From an uncultured Candidatus Saccharibacteria bacterium (GTDB lineage Bacteria; Patescibacteriota; Doudnabacteria; UBA920), in the NCBI GenBank assembly GCA_964600695.1, contig CAZRKK010000002.1, forward strand, positions 5,354-69,353: 64,000 nt of DNA. The letters run 5' to 3'. The notes beneath the pieces are model-generated. The model had not been told where the DNA came from and searched no databases. It worked only from the letters and a program-made list of their open reading frames with translations. Positions 7,222 to 57,721 of the stretch are shown here, one piece after another (within the stretch, counting starts at the first letter, position 1; every line of letters starts with the position of its first letter). The position numbers were made by a program, and so were the translations under genes.

Positions 7222-7629
7222 ATGTTAATTCCAAAAAAGGTCAAACACCGCAAACACCATCGCGGTCATAACAAAGGTAAAGCAACTTCTGGTAATTTTA
7301 TTGCTTTTGGAAGCTTCGCTCTTAAGGCTATGGAAGGCAGTTTCGTAACTGCTCGCCAAATCGAAGCCGCTCGTCGAGCTATGACTCGTAGTGTTCAACG
7401 TGGTGGTAAAATCTGGATTCGTATTTTCCCAGACAAGCCAATGACTGATCACGGTAACGAATCTGTAATGGGTAGCGGTAAAGGTGCCGTATCTCACTTC
7501 GTAGCTGTAGTCAAATCTGGTCGCATCCTATTCGAAATGGATGGTGTCCCAGAAGTTGCTGCTCGCGAAGCGATGAGACTCGCTGCACACAAACTGCCTG
7601 TGAAGACTAAATTCCTAATCAAGCAATAA
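7222..7629 (+). CDS. rplP: 50S ribosomal protein L16
   Basis: [15 protein letters not shown]...[12 protein letters not shown]...[11 protein letters not shown]. Confidence 0.97.
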
Positions 7630-12142: not shown

Positions 12143-13420
12143 ATGAATAAATTAAGCTTAATTTGGAAAACTAAAGATTTGCGTTGGAAGATCTTCATGG
12201 TCATGATGTTGCTTTTAGTGACTCGTGTTTTGGCTCATGTCCCAATTCCTGGGATTAGCGTCACTGGCTTGAAGGCTTTCTTCGAAAGCAATCAATTTTT
12301 AAACTTATTGAACGTTTTTTCTGGTGGTGGACTAAGTAACTTTTCTATCGCTATGCTTGGTGTTGGACCATACATCACAGCATCTATTATTATGCAGTTG
12401 TTGGTCATGATTGTTCCTTCACTTACAGAACTACAGAAAGAAAGTGGAGAAGCTGGTCGAGTTAAAATCAACCAGTACACTCGTTTTTTGACTTTGCCAT
12501 TAGCAGTTTTGTCTGGTTTCGGAACTATTCGATTATTACAAAGCCAAGGTGGGGCAGAGTTACTTGGAACTTTCTCTCCTTTCCAGTGGTTCCTAACTTT
12601 GTTAACAGTTACCGCTGGTACAATGTTGGTTATGTGGATCGGTGAAATCATTTCCGAATACGGAATTGGTAATGGTGTATCTTTAGTAATTTTCGCCGGT
12701 ATCGTTTCTCAGTTACCTAAGAGCGTTGGTTCGTTGGTTCAGTTATATGATCCAAGCCAATTACCAACCATTATTGGATTTGCTATTGTCGCTTTGATCG
12801 TTATCGCCAGTGTAGTATTTGTGACTGAAGCTCAGCGCAATGTCCCGGTTACGTATGCAAAGCGGGTGAGTGGAGATAAACAAGTTGGTGGAGTTAACTC
12901 ATTCTTACCGTTACGTCTTAACCAAGCAGGTGTTATTCCAATCATCTTCGCAATTTCATTATTGTTGTTCCCAGCGATTATTGCTCAGTTCTTCTTAAAT
13001 GCCAAGACTCCTTTGATTGCTGAATATGCCCAAAAAGCTATTGATTTTACAAATAATCAAGGCGTTTGGTATGGCGTATCTTACTTCCTATTAGTTGTTA
13101 TATTCACTTATTTCTACACTAATATTGTTGTAAATCCAGATGAAGTTTCCGAAAACATGCAACGCAGTGGTGGCTTTGTTCCTGGTATTCGCCCCGGGAA
13201 GCAGACTGCTGATTACTTATACAAAGTTTTGAACCGCATCACTTTGCCTGGATCCTTATTCCTTGGTTTAATCGCTATCCTGCCTTTCATCTTACAAACA
13301 TGGACAGGAACCCGAGCATTAACATTTGGTGGTACTGGATTGCTGATTGTAGTAGCGGTAGTAATTGAAAGTATCAAGCAAGTCGAGGCTCAGCTAACTA
13401 TGCACGACTATCAAAAATAA
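12143..13420 (+). CDS. secY: preprotein translocase subunit SecY
   Basis: 425-aa 10-TM protein with SecY motifs (GISVTGLKAFF, GVGPYITASIIMQLL, NGVSLVIFAGI), after rplO. Confidence 0.96.
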   Translation: MNKLSLIWKTKDLRWKIFMVMMLLLVTRVLAHVPIPGISVTGLKAFFESNQFLNLLNVFSGGGLSNFSIAMLGVGPYITASIIMQLLVMIVPSLTELQKESGEAGRVKINQYTRFLTLPLAVLSGFGTIRLLQSQGGAELLGTFSPFQWFLTLLTVTAGTMLVMWIGEIISEYGIGNGVSLVIFAGIVSQLPKSVGSLVQLYDPSQLPTIIGFAIVALIVIASVVFVTEAQRNVPVTYAKRVSGDKQVGGVNSFLPLRLNQAGVIPIIFAISLLLFPAIIAQFFLNAKTPLIAEYAQKAIDFTNNQGVWYGVSYFLLVVIFTYFYTNIVVNPDEVSENMQRSGGFVPGIRPGKQTADYLYKVLNRITLPGSLFLGLIAILPFILQTWTGTRALTFGGTGLLIVVAVVIESIKQVEAQLTMHDYQK

Positions 13421-13909: not shown

Positions 13910-16468
13910 ATGCCTTTTGGATTTGAACTCAATACTGTAATTTATGCATCACTACTACTAGGAATTTTAGTAGTAGTGTTTTTGCTTGTCGCTGCTTATT
14001 ATATTCACAGGCATTGGTATTACAGTCATGTCATTTTACCCCGCACTAAAGAGTGGGTGTTTTTGGAAATTCAAATGCCAAAAGACAACAGCGAGGATAA
14101 AGAAAAATATCAACGCGATGAAGAAAAAAAATTACTAATTGGTATTGCCGAGCAATTATTCACAACTTTATCAGGAATTAGTCACACTAATTGGTTTTGG
14201 CAACCTAAAGAATATATAAGTTTTGAAATTGCGTGTACAGACAAAAAGATTTCCTTTTATATCAATTGTCCGCGTAAGCTTCAGGAGCTAATAGAAAAAC
14301 AAGTTCAAGCTCAGTACCCTCACGCTTTTATCGAGGAGATTAAAGGCTATAATCCCTTTCCAGAAACTGGGGAGATCGAAGCTACCGAGTTAAGATTGAC
14401 CAAGCCTTATATGTATCCTTTTCGTACTTACAAGAGTATGGAAACAGATCCATTGAATGCGTTAACAAACGCTATGTCAAAACTGAGCGATGGTGATGGG
14501 GCGGTTATTCAAATGATTTTGTATCCAGCAGGGGATCACTGGCAGCATCGTCCGCGGCACATGGCTTTAGAAATTCAGCAAGGTAAAAATCCGAACATTG
14601 TTGCCAAGAGTGCGTTTGGAAGATTTGCGCGCGAGGTAGGAAGCACAGCTAAGGATGGTGTCTTAGGTGGAACTCAGTTAAGTAAAGATCAAATGCAACA
14701 ACGTACCGATTTGTCGGGACGTTATTCGGCCATCAACTTAACTCCGATGCAACAAGACATGGTTAAGCGTTTCGAAGAAAAAGCTAGCCGCCCAGGCTTC
14801 TATACCAACATTCGTATTGTCACAGCATCACCAACTCCTGGAACAGCTAAAGTGAATATGCATAATTTAGTGTCTTCATTTTTGCAGTACAACATGCCGC
14901 CGTTTAATGGTTTTAGAGTTAAGCGTCGTGCTAAGAAGCGTATTATTAAAGATTATATTTTTAGAATTTATCGCCGCTACGGACGTAAGTCTATTTTAAA
15001 TACCGAAGAATTAACTAGTATTTGGCATCTTCCGACTCCATTTTTGGAAACACCTAATATTAAATGGTTGTTATCTAAAAAAGCTCCACCACCTATAAAC
15101 TTGCAACCAGAAGGAATATTACTAGGCCGAAATATATATCGTGGGCAGGAGACACCAATTCATATGGCACGTGATGATCGTCGTCGTCACATGTATATTT
15201 TGGGACGTACTGGTGTGGGTAAAACCGAAATCATGAAATACATGTCCGTTCAAGATATCAAGAACGGTGATGGAATTTGTATTATCGATCCTCATGGTGA
15301 TTTTATTGAAGATGTTTTACCTCACATTCCAAAAGAACGAGCCGAAGATGTAATCTTATTTGACCCATTCGATACCGACAGGCCGATGGGTTTGAACATG
15401 CTCGAAGTCACTAGTGAAGGTCAAAAAGATTTTGCTGTTCAAGAAATGATCTCTATCTTTTATAAATTAGTTACAGATCCTGCGATGCTTGGACCTATGT
15501 TCGAGCACAACATGCGTAATGCCATGCTAACCTTAATGGCTGACGAAGAAAATCCTGGAACTATTGTTGAAGTCCCACGTATATTTACGGACACTGAATT
15601 CCAAAAGTATAAAGTCTCTAAATTAAATGATCCTGTGGTAAGAGCATTTTGGGAGAAAGAAATGGCCAAGACTTCCGATTTTCATAAGTCGGAAATGTTA
15701 GGTTACTTAGTTTCTAAAGTAGGCCGCTTTGTAGAAAATTCCATGATGCGAAATATTGTTGGTCAACCAAAGAGTTCTTTTAACTTCCGTGATATCATGG
15801 ATAACAAAAAAATTCTTTTGGTGAATTTAGCAAAGGGTAAAGTAGGGGAGGTGAACGCAAAATTAATTGGCTTAATTTTAGTGAGTAAAATTCAAATGGC
15901 GGCATTGTCCCGTGCAGATATTCCAGAAAGCGAACGCCAAGATTTCTATTTATATGTTGATGAATTCCAAAACTTTATTACCGATGCTTTTTCTTCTATT
16001 TTGAGCGAAGCCCGTAAGTATCGATTGAATTTGATTATTGGTCATCAGTTCTTAGCTCAGTTGGGGCAAGCAGCTGGTGCGCAAGGTGCAGCTAGTAACG
16101 ATTTACGTGATGCTGTGTTTGGTAATGCTGGTAGTATGGTAACTTTCCGTATTGGTGTAGAAGATAGTGAAGTTATGGCAAAGGAGTTTGCACCAACTTT
16201 TAATGAGTTTGATTTATTAAATGTCGATAGATTTAATGCTTTTGTAAAGTTGATGATTAATGGAACAGCCAGCAAACCATTTAACATGGCCACATACCCC
16301 TTAGCTAAACCAACTGAAGATCAAAAGAAGACAGGGGATGCTATTCGACAGTTATCAAGGTTAAAATTTGGTCGTCCACGGGCCGAAGTTGAAGCAGAAA
16401 TCCTAGAAGCCAGCCAAGTTGCTGATATGATGGCGGCTGGTCCAGGGAGTATCGAGAAAACGGTTTAA
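13910..16468 (+). CDS. membrane-anchored P-loop NTPase, TraG/VirD4 (type IV coupling protein)-like, FtsK-HerA superfamily
   Basis: N-terminal TM helix (VIYASLLLGILVVVFLLVAAYYI). Walker A is LGRTGVGKTE and IIDPHGDF follows it. Walker B is FYLYVDEFQNF, then ARKYRLNLIIGHQFLAQL, resembling the TraG-D_C region. Confidence 0.7.
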   Translation: MPFGFELNTVIYASLLLGILVVVFLLVAAYYIHRHWYYSHVILPRTKEWVFLEIQMPKDNSEDKEKYQRDEEKKLLIGIAEQLFTTLSGISHTNWFWQPKEYISFEIACTDKKISFYINCPRKLQELIEKQVQAQYPHAFIEEIKGYNPFPETGEIEATELRLTKPYMYPFRTYKSMETDPLNALTNAMSKLSDGDGAVIQMILYPAGDHWQHRPRHMALEIQQGKNPNIVAKSAFGRFAREVGSTAKDGVLGGTQLSKDQMQQRTDLSGRYSAINLTPMQQDMVKRFEEKASRPGFYTNIRIVTASPTPGTAKVNMHNLVSSFLQYNMPPFNGFRVKRRAKKRIIKDYIFRIYRRYGRKSILNTEELTSIWHLPTPFLETPNIKWLLSKKAPPPINLQPEGILLGRNIYRGQETPIHMARDDRRRHMYILGRTGVGKTEIMKYMSVQDIKNGDGICIIDPHGDFIEDVLPHIPKERAEDVILFDPFDTDRPMGLNMLEVTSEGQKDFAVQEMISIFYKLVTDPAMLGPMFEHNMRNAMLTLMADEENPGTIVEVPRIFTDTEFQKYKVSKLNDPVVRAFWEKEMAKTSDFHKSEMLGYLVSKVGRFVENSMMRNIVGQPKSSFNFRDIMDNKKILLVNLAKGKVGEVNAKLIGLILVSKIQMAALSRADIPESERQDFYLYVDEFQNFITDAFSSILSEARKYRLNLIIGHQFLAQLGQAAGAQGAASNDLRDAVFGNAGSMVTFRIGVEDSEVMAKEFAPTFNEFDLLNVDRFNAFVKLMINGTASKPFNMATYPLAKPTEDQKKTGDAIRQLSRLKFGRPRAEVEAEILEASQVADMMAAGPGSIEKTV

Positions 16469-16538: not shown

Positions 16539-16593
16539 ATTCGCAGTAGTTTTTTTGTAGTTTAAATCAATTTAGTTGGAGGACTTTGTTAAT

Positions 16594-17064
16594 ATGTATA
16601 AAAACTCGTTGGTCATGAAGATGATCCTAACGTTTGCGGCCTTTAGCGCCGTCGTTGTATTCCTGAACTACGTGGTCGGCATGCCGACTACTAAGCGCAT
16701 GAACTTCGTCTTGATGAGCTATGGTGTTGGTTCGGCCACCATCTTGGCTCTCGCGGCCGTTTTTCCGAGCCGTCTGACATCGGCGCTGTGCCGTCTTGTG
16801 CAGATTGGTTGGGCAGTGGCCATCGTTCTCGGTGGTTTTGCTATGATTATTATCATTGTGGTTGGTTTGGGGCAGTTTAACCTGCCGTTCCTATCGCTAC
16901 AGTGGTATAGCCTGTTCATGGCTTTAGGAATCTTGGGGGCCAGCGTGTTCATGTTTGTCAACGACTCGTATTTTGAAGTCGTTAACGAATATGAAAGCAA
17001 AGCTGGGAAGCCTAAGGTGGTGACACCGCCGGCAAACAGCACTTCGTCGAGCGTTTCGGCATAG
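16594..17064 (+). CDS. 4-TM membrane protein, G+C/CpG-rich coding sequence, no family recognised
   Basis: GGAGGA at 16578-16583, 10 nt before the ATG at 16594, which I prefer over the TTG at 16576. Four hydrophobic helices. Codon usage differs from neighbouring genes. Confidence 0.6.
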   Translation: MYKNSLVMKMILTFAAFSAVVVFLNYVVGMPTTKRMNFVLMSYGVGSATILALAAVFPSRLTSALCRLVQIGWAVAIVLGGFAMIIIIVVGLGQFNLPFLSLQWYSLFMALGILGASVFMFVNDSYFEVVNEYESKAGKPKVVTPPANSTSSSVSA

Positions 17065-17091
17065 AAACTCCGCACAAGGGTTAGAAGTATT

Positions 17092-17128
17092 GGGTAAGAG
17101 CGAAAATATTCGCTTTTACCCTTTTTTT
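17092..17128 (+). terminator. rho-independent terminator
   Basis: 11-bp stem gggtaagagcg (17092-17102) / cgcttttaccc (17111-17121) with one G-U pair, then T7. Confidence 0.8.
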
Positions 17129-17169
17129 ATTGCCTAAAATTGCCATTTTAAAATTTCTGTTATCAGCTA

Positions 17170-17198
17170 TTGACAAAACATCAAAAATAGTGTATACT
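17170..17198 (+). promoter_or_regulatory. near-consensus sigma70 promoter
   Basis: TTGACA (17170-17175), 17-nt spacer, TATACT (17193-17198). It shares the tattgacaaaa context with the promoter at 16510. Confidence 0.65.
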
Positions 17199-17233
17199 GT
17201 TACTTAAACTAAATATTGGTTAGAAAGTGAATT

Positions 17234-17346
17234 ACCTTCAGAAATTCAGATTTATCGAGATATGGTTTTCTGAAGGTCATGCACGTGTATGACTGTTGTA
17301 GCGCTGTAAATAAAAAAACAGCATTGTAACGGTCAATCACATGACC
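17234..17346 (+). ncRNA. structured 5' leader (four consecutive hairpins), candidate cis-regulatory RNA
   Basis: P1 17234-17277 has an 11-bp stem. P2 17276-17293 is a near-palindrome. P3 17295-17330 has a 13-bp stem with G-U pairs that work only on the + strand. P4 is 17331-17346. Confidence 0.4.
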
Positions 17347-17385
17347 AAGTTTTCAAAAACAGCCTAAGGAGGGCTAATCAATACT

Positions 17386-18102
17386 ATGCAGAAATTCATT
17401 ATTTCGTTCGTTTTTGTCGCAATGTCACTTATGGCTGTTTCGTCGGCCTCGGCCCAGAATCCGGACTTGAACGTTCCGGTGCCTTCGGGAAAGACGCAGA
17501 CCACGAAGAGCCCGGACTTGAACGTTCCGGTGCCTAACAAGTCGGTTCAAAGTTCGGCTAACGTCTATAGGACGTACCGCAACACTACGGTCGTTAAGAA
17601 GTATTCCATGAACGGCGTCGACAAAGACGCTCGTGAAGTGAATGTCGCTCAGGACATTCGTATAAAAAAACTGGAAGACGGCAAGGCTAACTCGTCGGAC
17701 GTCGAAGCAGGATTTAAGTCGGTTGACGATCGTTTCGCGGCTAAGGATCAGGTGGATGCACGACAGGACCGAGAGCTCGGATATACTTTCTGGGCTTTCA
17801 TAATCATCCCGGTAGTCTTTCTGGTTCTGGCGTTGTTGTACTTCATGTTTGGAGGCAACAATAATAACGTTCAGGTTAACGGTGGTGGACATGCACCGGC
17901 ATACGTACCTCAGGCCCAGCCTGCAGTACAGCCGATACCATACTACCAGCCTATTCCTGCACAACCCGTTCCTGCGGCACAACCGGTTCCTGCAGCCAAC
18001 CAACAGCCAAGCGTAAATGTTCCGATCAATATTGCGGTCGAGCCGATTCAGATCGATCTCCGACCGTCGTTGCGTGGAACACCGCCGGCACCCGCTCAGT
18101 AG
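17386..18102 (+). CDS. secreted, TM-anchored protein with PDLNVPVP repeats and a P/Q-rich tail; G+C/CpG-rich coding sequence
   Basis: AAGGAGGG lies 9 nt upstream of the ATG. Signal peptide ends ...AVSSASA|Q. TM helix FWAFIIIPVVFLVLALLYFMF. 11 of 16 Ser codons are TCG. Confidence 0.65.
   Translation: MQKFIISFVFVAMSLMAVSSASAQNPDLNVPVPSGKTQTTKSPDLNVPVPNKSVQSSANVYRTYRNTTVVKKYSMNGVDKDAREVNVAQDIRIKKLEDGKANSSDVEAGFKSVDDRFAAKDQVDARQDRELGYTFWAFIIIPVVFLVLALLYFMFGGNNNNVQVNGGGHAPAYVPQAQPAVQPIPYYQPIPAQPVPAAQPVPAANQQPSVNVPINIAVEPIQIDLRPSLRGTPPAPAQ
17461..17535 (+). repeat. 24-nt exact direct repeat, two copies 51 nt apart
   Basis: ccggacttgaacgttccggtgcct occurs at 17461-17484 and 17512-17535, encoding PDLNVPVP twice. 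Confidence 0.9.
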
Positions 18103-18118: not shown

Positions 18119-18149
18119 AGAGAGCAAGGTAAAACTTGCTCTCTTTTTT
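18119..18149 (+). terminator. rho-independent terminator
   Basis: Perfect 10-bp stem agagagcaag (18119-18128) / cttgctctct (18135-18144), then T6. Confidence 0.85.
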
Positions 18150-18167
18150 CATTTTTATAAAAAATAG

Positions 18168-18176
18168 TGGTATAAT
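18168..18176 (+). promoter_or_regulatory. extended -10 promoter (TGgTATAAT)
   Basis: Exact TGGTATAAT, 37 nt upstream of the ATG at 18213. Confidence 0.55.
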
Positions 18177-57106: not shown

Positions 57107-57160
57107 GAATTCAAGTGGTGAGGAGTGGGGACAAGTGGGGACAAGTGGGTGGATAAGTGG
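57095..57160 (+). promoter_or_regulatory. array of GTGG(G) direct repeats with 10-nt phasing, candidate MraZ operator
   Basis: GTGG(G) starts at 57095, 57115, 57125, 57135, 57145 and 57157. Four consecutive boxes are exactly 10 nt apart (agtggggaca agtggggaca agtgggtgga). Confidence 0.6.
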
Positions 57161-57289
57161 ATAACTCAAAACCATGAATTGCGAATTTCCTAACAAATAT
57201 TAAAATTTGGCTACTAGAATGTGAGTTGGTGTTTACTGCTAAGGAATCACAAACTAACGTTCTACTAGCTCAAGCTGGTAACGTACATT

Positions 57290-57721
57290 ATGTTCATTGG
57301 AGAATACAACGCATCAATCGATGATAAAGCTCGGGTAATTATCCCGGCTAAGTTTCGATCTGATTTAAAAAATAAAGTTGTAGTTACTCGTGGTTTAGAT
57401 AATTCGTTGGTTCTGTATACATTAGACGAATGGAAGAAGCTTGCAGAAAAATTGGCTAGTCTCCCAATTTCTACTGCCAACACACGTGCTTTTTCTCGTC
57501 TAATGCTTGCAGGAGCAATGGACTGCGAAATCGATAAGCAGGGCCGAATCATCTTGCCGGGGTACTTAAAACAGTATGCCAAGATCAACAAAAAAATGGT
57601 CTTCGCTGGTCTTTATTCCCGCATTGAATTGTGGAGTGAAGAACTCTGGACTAAGTACAAGACACAAACAGAAAAACAAAGTAATCAAATTGCAGAACAG
57701 TTAGGTGACTTAGGGGTATAA
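57290..57721 (+). CDS. mraZ: transcriptional regulator MraZ
   Basis: MFIGEYNASIDDKARVIIPAKFR and a second SpoVT/AbrB-like half with DKQGRIILP. Confidence 0.93.
   Translation: MFIGEYNASIDDKARVIIPAKFRSDLKNKVVVTRGLDNSLVLYTLDEWKKLAEKLASLPISTANTRAFSRLMLAGAMDCEIDKQGRIILPGYLKQYAKINKKMVFAGLYSRIELWSEELWTKYKTQTEKQSNQIAEQLGDLGV

What the first reader, a model, noticed from the sequence alone, without database searches (positions are those of the whole stretch)
17199..17385. About 185-nt multi-hairpin leader upstream of the secreted P/Q-rich protein gene (candidate riboswitch, thermosensor or sRNA)
Seen: the TATACT -10 ends at 17198 and the ATG is at 17386, which predicts an unusually long 5' UTR for this compact genome. 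It contains four back-to-back hairpins:
- P1: accttcagaaa (17234-17244) / tttctgaaggt (17267-17277), 11 bp.
- P2: an 18-nt near-palindrome gtcatgcacgtgtatgac (17276-17293), whose only asymmetry is a G-T pair.
- P3: gttgtagcgctgt (17295-17307) / acagcattgtaac (17318-17330), 13 positions with three G-U pairs that work only in plus-strand RNA.
- P4: ggtca/tgacc (17331-17346).

The SD (aaggaggg) sits in the loop of a short agcc/ggct stem. I do not recognise a known riboswitch class.

Inference: this is a cis-regulatory RNA, or P2 is a protein operator.
Basis: partly seen in the sequence, partly recalled or inferred. Interest (0 to 1): 0.5.

Follow-up and report, generated by a model that had tools for sequence, protein, structure and literature searches.

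The report
Conserved structured mRNA leader, CPR bacterium
The stretch is a real, evolutionarily conserved, folded 5' leader of the messenger RNA for a fast-evolving envelope protein in a small group of Patescibacteria (CPR) genomes; it matches no described RNA family, and what it senses or does is still unknown.

Summary
The plus strand folds far better than shuffles (z -5.3; minus strand -2.8).

The same promoter-leader-gene cassette turned up in 10 loci (about 5 lineages). The proteins have drifted to 27-47% identity, yet the leader core is 90-97% conserved.

P1 and P3 carry many compensatory changes: 11 of 37 pairs, 0/500 shuffles, slid controls near zero. An independent RNAalifold run recovers them as the cores of two long hairpins, HP-A (17227-17284) and HP-B (17291-17334), plus the SD-displaying mini-hairpin.

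P2 and P4 are built from invariant strands at the hairpin bases. They form an alternative fold within -3 to +5 kcal/mol of the long-hairpin fold, with only slight covariation support.

Negative results:
- No Rfam family matches.
- No terminator lies before the ORF.
- No conserved anti-SD exists.
- There is no conserved uORF.
- P2/P4 do not behave as a DNA operator.

Verdict: a new, narrowly distributed cis-acting RNA leader motif. I favour an invariant hub that binds a factor or switches conformation to set translation or mRNA life. A metabolite riboswitch is possible but unsupported. Interest is moderate.

The parts
17092..17121 (+). Intrinsic terminator of the upstream gene (13-bp stem followed by a T run). 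It isolates the cassette from upstream transcription.
   Evidence: It is conserved in L001-L003.
17170..17198 (+). Promoter TTGACA-17 nt-TATACT, including the conserved spacer AAAATAGTG.
   Evidence: It scores 11/12. It is invariant in all aligned loci and present in L094 and L096.
17205..17226 (+). Predicted A/U-rich, mostly unpaired 5' tail of the transcript. The start at about 17205 is inferred, not mapped. The tail contains the conserved CUUMAAACUAAAUA.
   Evidence: the tail is 14-34 nt in all lineages, and mean P(unpaired) of its first 10 nt is 0.51-1.00. Alignment.
17227..17284 (+). It has a basal extension GUGAAUUA (17227-17234) with UCAUGCAC (17277-17284) that contains a conserved purine-purine mismatch. 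Its apical part varies in length (22-55 nt).
   Evidence: for folds; four P1 pairs have double changes, and L096 has a GC-to-UA compensation at 17227/17284. RNAalifold on a sequence-only alignment recovers it.
17285..17290 (+). Junction between the two long hairpins (GUGUAU). It can extend HP-B by pairing with 17338-17340, or serve as the 3' strand of P2.
   Evidence: GUG:CAC in the window corresponds to CUGC:GCAG in L092 and GUGC:GCAU in L094. The pairing is broken in L002, L003, L088, L091 and L096.
17276..17293 (+). It is an alternative hairpin made from the invariant hub and excludes the basal extensions of HP-A and HP-B.
   Evidence: 98% of cells paired, with one-sided changes only; pairing probability is <=0.36 in 9 of 10 sequences and 0.97 in L091.
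17291..17334 (+). It has conserved G-U/U-G pairs and one conserved mismatch. Its apex is capped by GNRA tetraloops in four lineages and by an A-rich loop in the window group.
   Evidence: five pairs have double changes; apical loops are GAAA, GUAA, GCAA and GAAA; the basal G-U part is lost on the minus strand.
17331..17346 (+). UGACC (17342-17346) is almost invariant although it is unpaired in the favoured fold.
   Evidence: the fifth pair changes AU to GU to UA. UGACC conservation is 0.97; loop length is 3-6 nt.
17347..17360 (+). A-rich single-stranded linker (AAGUUUUCAAAAAC). The U run is not conserved, so it is not a terminator tail.
17361..17375 (+). Mini-hairpin AGCC-UAAGGAG-GGCU that displays the Shine-Dalgarno sequence (17366-17373) in its loop.
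   Evidence: The same design (GGCC-UAAGGAG-GGCC) is found in the unrelated 'type 2' leader of L095.
17386..18102 (+). Regulated gene of 238 aa: signal peptide, short extracellular region, one transmembrane segment and a Pro/Gln-rich tail. It matches no known family, evolves fast and is GC3-rich.
18119..18144 (+). Intrinsic terminator directly after the gene, so the gene is monocistronic.

Best explanation
The segment is the transcribed 5' untranslated leader of the monocistronic gene 17386-18102. It is about 181 nt long if transcription starts near 17205, as the promoter predicts.

**Fold.** As RNA it forms these elements in order:
- an invariant UGACC;
- an A-rich linker;
- a small hairpin that displays the Shine-Dalgarno sequence in its loop.

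**Proposed mechanism.** I think it acts in cis on its own mRNA after transcription.
- The upper stems and loops are free to vary, so they act as scaffold.
- The nucleotides at the bases of both hairpins, the junction between them and the 3' UGACC are almost invariant.
- I read this hub as a recognition or switching site. Through it a trans-acting factor sets how efficiently the exposed ribosome-binding site is used and how long the message lives.
- The factor is more likely a protein or another RNA than a metabolite.

**Shown.**
- Promoter, leader and gene are inherited as one unit.
- The structure is conserved through compensatory changes.
- The structure is specific to the plus strand.
- The hub is far more conserved than the protein.

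**Inferred.** The transcription start, the existence and nature of the factor, and the regulatory output.
For: **Cassette found in 10 loci.**
- Besides the window, the cassette occurs in L001-L004, L088/L089, L091, L092, L094 and L096.
- It always sits directly upstream of a homologous signal-peptide/TM/Pro-rich protein.
- It does so although the neighbouring genes differ: after a small membrane-protein gene, after an SLT-like gene on the other strand, or directly after the T4CP-like gene.

**Leader conserved far beyond the protein.**
- Proteins are only 27-47% identical between lineages.
- The hub segments score 0.90-0.97 conservation, against 0.54-0.63 for loops.

**Covariation.**
- 96.1% of cells are paired.
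- 11 of 37 pairs and 25 cells have changes on both sides.
- The score is 0.271 against 0.145 for shuffles (0/500 reach it) and <=0.068 for slid partners.
- The two-long-hairpin version gives the same picture.
- RNAalifold on a sequence-only MAFFT alignment predicts HP-A, HP-B and the SD hairpin, with 14 of 42 pairs compensated.

**Strand.** The plus consensus is -43.1 kcal/mol against -32.0 for the minus strand, where the G-U-rich base of HP-B disappears. The single-sequence z is -5.28 against -2.80.

**Evidence for a hub or switch.**
- The constrained folds 'P1ext+P3ext' and 'P2+P4' differ by only -2.8 to +5.4 kcal/mol in all 10 sequences.
- Each state has a little covariation of its own. For the first: GC to UA at 17227/17284 in L096, and GUG:CAC to CUGC:GCAG or GUGC:GCAU in L092 and L094. 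For the second: AU to GU to UA in P4, and UA to UG and GU to AU or GC in P2.
- UGACC is invariant although it is unpaired in the favoured fold.
- Non-canonical pairs are conserved: the A-G mismatch, the G-U pairs and the C-A mismatch.

**Tertiary-contact hint.** HP-B is capped by GNRA tetraloops in four independent lineages.
Against: - No expression platform was found. There is no terminator between promoter and ORF. No conserved sequence can pair with the SD; the best duplexes use different segments in each lineage. The SD hairpin is predicted to form in either state.
- P2 and P4 strands are invariant, so the alternative fold is barely testable by covariation. Thermodynamics favours the two long hairpins in 9 of 10 sequences.
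- The sample is shallow: 10 sequences, about 5 lineages, from genomes whose T4CP-like proteins are 86-100% identical. Part of the 'invariance' may therefore be limited divergence.
- The covariation alignment A8 was fitted to the model.
- No candidate binding protein is identified, and no transcript data were examined.
Confidence: 0.4

Rival explanations
1. Passive expression module. The leader senses nothing. Its hairpins simply protect the message from ribonucleases. Together with the A-rich linker and the loop-displayed SD, they give a fixed level of translation, as described for the long 5' UTRs of some surface-protein genes.
For: - The gene has a near-consensus promoter, a strong SD and terminators on both sides, so it is an insulated monocistronic unit.
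- An analogous gene in sister genomes (L093, L095) carries a different, also long and multi-hairpin leader that ends in the same kind of SD-displaying hairpin. Long structured leaders may therefore be a general property of this gene class rather than a specific sensor.
- No expression platform was found.
- Lactobacillus slpA transcripts owe their 14-15 min half-lives to a long structured 5' UTR (PMC3666127).
Against: - A purely structural role does not explain why the hairpin bases, the junction and the unpaired UGACC are nearly invariant while the upper stems covary freely.
- The classical protective hairpin must sit at the very 5' end, because RppH and RNase E need single-stranded 5' termini (PMC3997798). 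Here the predicted transcript begins with 14-34 mostly unpaired nt.
- The gene has the lowest ribosomal-protein-based codon adaptation of 62 ORFs in the window (0.39), which does not fit a very highly expressed gene.
Confidence: 0.25
2. Small-molecule riboswitch of a new class. The invariant junction of HP-A and HP-B is the ligand pocket, and P2/P4 versus the long-hairpin fold is the switch.
For: - The architecture is aptamer-like: variable covarying peripheral stems, an invariant junction core and GNRA-capped helices.
- Mutually exclusive pairings are within a few kcal/mol of each other.
- The position is 5' of an ORF in a compact genome.
Against: - No Rfam family matches, even at E<=10.
- There is no terminator and no conserved SD-sequestering helix.
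- The only associated gene is a fast-evolving envelope protein of unknown function, not a transporter or enzyme.
Established riboswitch classes are usually broader and control several genes.
Confidence: 0.12
3. DNA-level element. Either the GGTCA/TGACC inverted repeats (P2, P4) are operators for a transcription factor acting as a roadblock, or the conserved promoter-leader block is a homology anchor for exchanging the variable gene between genomes.
For: - P2 is an 18-bp near-palindrome, and the GGTCA/TGACC half-sites occur twice.
- The downstream gene is hypervariable and compositionally atypical (GC3 0.54-0.68 against about 0.3 in AT-rich hosts). Meanwhile both flanks (the leader, and the terminator plus next promoter) are highly conserved.
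Against: - The spacer between the P4 half-sites is 3, 5 or 6 nt in different lineages, and the centre of P2 is not palindromic in 5 of 10 sequences.
- Substitutions preserve RNA pairs, including G-U intermediates that are mismatches on the other strand.
- Compensatory changes in P1 and P3 have no DNA-level explanation.
- The elements lie 77-150 nt downstream of the promoter.
Confidence: 0.08
4. Source of a small RNA. The leader is cleaved off or prematurely terminated and acts in trans, in addition to or instead of controlling the downstream gene.
For: - The leader has a strong promoter and two stable hairpins, followed by a single-stranded A/U-rich stretch that could be a processing site.
- The sequence is very strongly conserved.
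Against: - No intrinsic terminator precedes the ORF, and the short U run after P4 is not conserved.
- The element is never found apart from the gene.
Confidence: 0.05
5. RNA thermometer. Melting of the structure with temperature opens the ribosome-binding site.
For: - The SD lies in a small hairpin whose stem includes the last two G of the SD.
- HP-B has G-U-rich, imperfect helices.
Against: - Most of the SD (AAGGAG) is in the loop, not paired, and no helix covers the AUG.
- The large conserved hairpins are 25-150 nt upstream and have no conserved contact with the SD.
Confidence: 0.03

Closest known systems
Long structured 5' UTRs of S-layer / major surface protein genes (e.g. Lactobacillus acidophilus slpA; PMC3666127)
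   Same: It is a long (over 150 nt), stably folded leader between a strong promoter and a strong, exposed SD. It precedes a monocistronic gene for a secreted or envelope protein. The leader is better conserved than the variable protein.
   Different: - Here the gene shows the poorest codon adaptation in the window, so there is no sign of very high expression.
- The 5' end is predicted to be unpaired.
- An invariant hub with alternative pairings suggests specific recognition.
- There is no sequence relationship.
- mRNA half-life is unknown.
5'-terminal stem-loop mRNA stabilisers (E. coli ompA, papA; B. subtilis aprE leader; reviewed in PMC3997798)
   Same: Both are cis-acting hairpins in a 5' UTR with a strong ribosome-binding site downstream.
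   Different: The defining feature is a hairpin at the extreme 5' end. It is not met with the predicted start, which leaves a 14-34 nt unpaired tail. Those elements also need no sequence-invariant core.
c-di-GMP-I (GEMM-I) riboswitch, Rfam RF01051 (architecture recalled from my own knowledge)
   Same: Both have two adjacent hairpins with conserved nucleotides where their bases meet, and a GNRA tetraloop on one hairpin. GEMM-I often lies upstream of surface, pilus or adhesin genes.
   Different: - No match to the Rfam model, even at E<=10.
- No tetraloop receptor was identified.
- No expression platform.
- Nothing is known about c-di-GMP signalling in this genome.
Orphan structured-RNA motifs found by comparative genomics of intergenic regions (Breaker-laboratory type 'motif' candidates; my own knowledge)
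   Same: Like them, it was detected as a conserved, covarying 5' UTR structure. It has a narrow phylogenetic range, an associated gene of unknown function and no ligand.
   Different: It is not in Rfam 15. Only 10 representatives are known so far.

Membership tests
Any Rfam 15 family | The covariance-model score reaches the family's gathering threshold. | tested here: not met
   There are 0 hits in the 64-kb window and 0 in seven related loci. At E<=10 over 17000-17500 only miRNA/snoRNA-type noise appears, at 10-21 bits against thresholds of 40-160.
Riboswitch (generic) | An aptamer-like domain: covarying stems around a sequence-invariant core. | tested here: met
   P1 and P3 covary: 9 pairs have double changes. 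The hub at 17277-17293, 17324-17334 and 17342-17346 is 0.90-0.97 conserved. The sample is only 10 sequences.
Riboswitch (generic) | An expression platform: an alternative helix that forms a terminator or occludes the SD or AUG. | tested here: not met
   There is no terminator before the ORF. The best SD-complementary segments differ between lineages. The SD hairpin forms in both constrained folds.
Riboswitch (generic) | Direct, selective binding of a small molecule. | not testable with these tools
   This needs in-line probing, ITC or SHAPE with candidate ligands.
Riboswitch (generic) | Association with genes of a coherent metabolic or transport function. | tested here: not met
   The leader always precedes the same envelope protein, which has no Pfam or NCBIfam family.
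RNA thermometer (ROSE / fourU type) | The SD and/or AUG is base-paired in a marginally stable helix. | tested here: not met
   AAGGAG lies in the hairpin loop. Only the last two G pair in a 4-bp G+C-rich stem, and the AUG is unpaired.
Transcription attenuator (terminator/antiterminator) | A G+C-rich hairpin followed by a U tract upstream of the ORF. | tested here: not met
   The scan finds plus-strand terminators only at 17092 and 18119. The UUUU after P4 is lost in L004, L091 and L096.
Leader-peptide (uORF) control | A conserved, translatable short ORF in the leader. | tested here: not met
   A uAUG at 17279 opens 11-18 codon ORFs in 9 of 10 sequences, but it is AUA in L003. The SD-like GAAGG lies only 2 nt upstream and is not conserved. 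The peptides differ between lineages.
5'-terminal stem-loop stabiliser (ompA type) | A hairpin within a few nt of the transcript's 5' end. | tested here: not met
   With the start placed 7 nt after the -10, 14-34 nt precede HP-A and are mostly unpaired. The start is predicted, not mapped.
S-layer-type stabilising 5' UTR | A long, stably folded UTR before an abundantly expressed surface-protein gene, giving the mRNA a long half-life. | tested here: inconclusive
   The long folded UTR is met. Abundance is not supported, because codon adaptation is the lowest of 62 ORFs. Half-life cannot be tested here.
Palindromic transcription-factor operator | Inverted repeat with fixed half-site spacing, and symmetry maintained in evolution. 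| tested here: not met
   The P4 spacer is 3, 5 or 6 nt. The P2 centre is CACGAG in 5 of 10 sequences. The L003 changes keep RNA pairs but break DNA symmetry.
Independent sRNA gene | Its own terminator or a defined 3' end, and occurrence independent of a downstream ORF. | tested here: not met
   There is no terminator. All 10 copies directly precede the homologous ORF.

The most novel reading that the evidence does not exclude
The leader is a previously undescribed conformational RNA switch confined to a clade of Patescibacteria (CPR). Its invariant hub would toggle between a two-long-hairpin state and a P2+P4 state on binding a cellular signal (a metabolite, second messenger or protein). This would control a hypervariable, compositionally odd envelope protein encoded next to a type-IV-secretion-like ATPase. 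That would be a rare example of signal-dependent gene control in these regulator-poor, host-dependent bacteria.
Probability: 0.15. Interest if true: 0.65.

Novelty: new member of a known kind. Interest (0 to 1): 0.4.

Why it matters
CPR/Patescibacteria have tiny genomes, few recognisable regulators and almost no experimentally studied regulatory RNAs. Here about 180-210 nt of leader is kept almost unchanged while the protein it precedes drifts to about 30% identity. That shows expression of this envelope protein is under tight post-transcriptional constraint.

The protein is encoded beside a conserved secretion/DNA-transfer-type ATPase and a giant surface protein. If the invariant hub binds a factor or ligand, it would give a handle on how these uncultivated episymbionts regulate their cell surface.

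Even if the leader is a passive module, it is a compact, portable promoter-leader-SD cassette native to CPR bacteria. As it stands, it is one more orphan RNA motif with a narrow range.

Tried and rejected
**Searches for more copies.**
1. Homologues of the 238-aa protein: only 6, all close, even with a profile. The protein evolves too fast to use as an anchor.
2. 80 species-representative loci anchored on the conserved T4CP-like protein: no leader within +/-3 kb by nhmmer or CM.
3. Two DNA-pattern scans of JGI metagenomes: 0 real hits. The three hits L085-L087 share only the pattern. In hindsight both patterns were specific to the window's own sub-clade. The broader core pattern, which matches all 10 known copies, could only be run on viral contigs, where it found 0 hits.
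4. Weak CM hits in other loci (E 0.24-9) lie inside coding regions and are noise. The hits in L093 and L095 (E 0.17-0.4) are the 'type 2' leaders. Homology to type 1 remains unproven.

**Structural ideas rejected or left open.**
5. An outer helix UUGGUUA (17217-17223) with UGACCAA (17342-17348), from the single-sequence fold, is not conserved outside the window's close relatives.
6. The long-range helix GGUCAUG (17275-17281) with CAUGACC (17340-17346) is possible in most sequences. It is broken at its 5th to 7th pairs in L096, L004, L092 and L094, and is not better than P2+P4.
7. Anti-SD pairing: no conserved partner.
8. uORF: not conserved. The 84-aa and 164-aa public gene calls in L088 are gene-calling artefacts.

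**Other checks.**
9. The 'highly expressed gene' idea was tested by codon adaptation and not supported.
10. A literature search for CPR regulatory RNAs found nothing relevant.
Full report
**Setting.**
- The window is a compact, about 38% G+C genome with nearly all genes on the plus strand.
- Upstream of the finding lie ribosomal-protein genes, secY (12143-13420) and an 852-aa protein related to type IV secretion coupling proteins (13910-16468).
- That protein has 70-100% identical relatives labelled Candidatus Doudnabacteria, Patescibacteria or 'uncultured Saccharibacteria'. The organism is therefore a CPR bacterium.
- Next comes a 162-aa polytopic membrane ORF (16576-17064), followed by a strong terminator (17092-17121).
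- Then come a near-consensus promoter (17170-17198), the finding (17199-17385) and a 238-aa ORF (17386-18102).
- A second terminator (18119-18144) follows, then a 1204-aa ORF.
- The gene behind the leader is thus an insulated, monocistronic unit.

**Check of the observation.**
- Three small corrections apply. P1 and P2 share two bases. P3 has a C-A mismatch at 17302/17323 in addition to its three G-U pairs. The last two G of the SD are in the stem of the mini-hairpin.
- The plus strand folds at -55.3 kcal/mol against -35.8 +/- 3.7 for shuffles (z -5.28). The minus strand gives only z -2.80.
- The leader is unusually long for this genome. Six of eight near-consensus intergenic promoters lie 6-78 nt from their ORF.
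- The only other long leader, before mraZ, is unstructured (z -0.15).
- Rfam 15 has no match at gathering score in the window or in related loci. At E<=10 over 17000-17500 it returns only noise.

**Related sequences.**
- The 238-aa protein has only six detectable homologues.
- Their contigs (L001-L004, L088/L089) show the same terminator-promoter-leader-gene arrangement.
- I then walked out from the well-conserved T4CP-like protein. Contigs whose T4CP is 86-91% identical (L091, L092, L094, L096) turned out to carry the same leader.
- In these contigs the leader precedes proteins of the same architecture: signal peptide, short coiled region, one TM segment and a Pro-rich tail.
- These proteins are only 27-38% identical to the window's protein.
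- In them the cassette lies in different neighbourhoods. In L091 it follows a small membrane-protein gene. In L092 and L094 it follows an SLT-like gene on the opposite strand. In L096 it follows the T4CP gene directly.
- Promoter, leader and gene therefore move as one unit.
- Eighty species-representative loci of more distant relatives lack the leader within 3 kb.
- Two sister genomes (L093, L095) have instead a different long multi-hairpin leader before an analogous gene on the other strand.
- The motif is thus real but narrowly and patchily distributed. Ten copies are known, nine distinct, from about five lineages.

**Structure and covariation.**
- On that alignment 96.1% of cells are paired, and 11 of 37 pairs (25 cells) change on both sides.
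- The covariation score is 0.271 against 0.145 for shuffles (0/500) and at most 0.068 when partners are slid by 1-3 columns.
- The double changes sit in P1 (4 pairs) and P3 (5 pairs), with one each in P4 and the SD stem.
- That alignment is fitted to the model, so I also ran RNAalifold on a sequence-only MAFFT alignment of eight copies.
- It recovers P1 and P3, extends both downwards, adds an inner P1 helix and the SD hairpin, and finds 14 of 42 pairs compensated. It does not predict P2 or P4.
- On the minus strand the consensus energy drops from -43.1 to -32.0 kcal/mol and the G-U-rich base of HP-B is lost.
- The functional molecule is therefore plus-strand RNA.

**The two folds.**
- The consensus fold is two long hairpins.
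- HP-A (17227-17284) is P1 plus GUGAAUUA paired to UCAUGCAC, with a conserved purine-purine mismatch.
- HP-B (17291-17334) is P3 plus GACU:GGUC.
- The basal extension of HP-A has one compensatory change (GC to UA in L096) and a U-C mismatch repaired to G-C in L091 and L096.
- HP-B can be extended by GUG:CAC in the window, which becomes CUGC:GCAG in L092 and GUGC:GCAU in L094.
- P2 and P4 are also maintained: 99.1% of cells are paired. P4's fifth pair goes AU to GU to UA. P2 shows UA to UG and GU to AU or GC.
- Partition-function folding favours the long hairpins in 9 of 10 sequences.
- Folds constrained to either state differ by only -2.8 to +5.4 kcal/mol.
- The strands involved, together with the 3' UGACC that is unpaired in the favoured fold, are the most conserved part of the leader. 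They score 0.90-0.97, against 0.54-0.63 for loops and 0.80-0.84 for the covarying P1 strands.
- Apical parts vary. The HP-A apex ranges from 22 to 55 nt.
- HP-B is capped by GAAA, GUAA, GCAA or GAAA tetraloops in four lineages and by an A-rich loop in the window group.

**What it is not.**
- No terminator lies between promoter and ORF, and the short U run after P4 is not conserved. It is therefore neither a transcription attenuator nor a self-contained sRNA.
- No conserved segment can pair with the SD. The SD is displayed in a loop, which argues against a thermometer or a classical translational riboswitch platform.
- A uORF starting at the invariant AUG 17279 is present in nine copies. It lacks a usable SD, its start is lost in L003 and its peptide is not conserved. 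It also explains two erroneous public gene calls.
- The operator idea fails on variable half-site spacing and on substitutions that keep RNA pairs but break DNA symmetry.
- A 5'-terminal protective hairpin is not present if transcription starts where the promoter predicts (principle in PMC3997798).
- The analogy with S-layer gene leaders (PMC3666127) holds for anatomy. It is weakened because this gene and its upstream neighbour have the lowest codon adaptation in the window and an anomalous GC3.

**Interpretation.**
- The firm conclusion is that this is a functional, plus-strand, cis-located RNA leader of a new sequence family.
- For mechanism I favour (about 0.4) a factor-recognised or switching hub at the bases of the two hairpins that tunes translation and mRNA life.
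- A passive structural module (0.25) and a metabolite riboswitch (0.12) remain open.
- DNA-level roles, an sRNA and a thermometer are unlikely.
- The main weaknesses are the shallow sample, the lack of any transcript data and the absence of an identified output mechanism.
- My metagenome pattern scans were, in hindsight, too specific to the window's own sub-clade. The motif's true range may therefore be wider than shown.

Noticed in passing
window 16576-17064 and 17386-18102; also L004 401-1084, L091 7457-8149, L095 8371-9078 (minus strand): The leader-linked gene and its upstream membrane-protein neighbour are compositional outliers. Their GC3 is 0.56-0.63 against about 0.30 for neighbouring genes, and their ribosomal-protein-based codon adaptation is the lowest of 62 ORFs (0.39 and 0.40). 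The leader-linked gene stays GC3-rich (0.54-0.68) in other AT-rich lineages although the proteins are only 30-47% identical. This is therefore a persistent property rather than a recent transfer. It is unexplained.
   Followed up: partly
L093 10280-10470 (minus strand); L095 9076-9280 (minus strand): A second, unrelated-looking long multi-hairpin leader ('type 2') precedes an analogous signal-peptide/TM protein in sister genomes. It starts with a GGGUCA-loop-UGACUC hairpin right after the -10. In L095 it ends in the same GGCC-UAAGGAG-GGCC SD-displaying hairpin. The type-1 model hits both weakly (E 0.17-0.4).
   Followed up: partly
window 57107-57289: This is the only other long (183 nt) promoter-to-ORF distance in the window. 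It lies before mraZ (57290-57721) and mraW, and carries the direct repeats GTGGGGACAAGTGGGGACAAGTGGGTGGATAAGTGGATAA. These look like MraZ-box operator repeats. The region is not structured as RNA (z -0.15).
   Followed up: partly
L091 7409-8131; L088 1555-1809 and 1880-2374: The public gene calls are wrong here. In L091 a 240-aa ORF was called on the strand opposite the real G+C-rich gene (the true ORF starts at 7457 on the plus strand). In L088/L089 an 84-aa ORF was called from the uAUG inside the leader, and the real 238-aa gene was truncated to 164 aa (protein P0004). The full ORF is intact.
   Followed up: yes
window 17176-17198 and 18160-18176; all related loci: The promoter spacer and extended -10 region AAAATAGTG(N)TATAMT recurs before the neighbouring 1204-aa gene. 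It is invariant across lineages and may be a lineage-specific extended promoter consensus.
   Followed up: no
window 13910-16468 and loci L005-L084: An 852-aa VirD4/TrwB-like ATPase (DUF8128 plus a coupling-protein domain) is 57-100% identical across at least 80 Patescibacteria species. In the loci whose upstream genes were examined (window, L091, L092, L094) it sits downstream of the ribosomal-protein/secY cluster, as a core gene rather than on a mobile element. Nearby genes include giant 1100-1500-aa proteins and an SLT-like hydrolase.
   Followed up: partly
window 17279-17329: A short ORF begins at the invariant AUG of the hub (MHVYDCCSAVNKKTAL in the window). ORFs of 11-18 codons are present in 9 of 10 leaders, but the AUG is AUA in L003. 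It is probably a by-product of the conserved GGUCAUGCAC, although translation of it was not excluded.
   Followed up: partly
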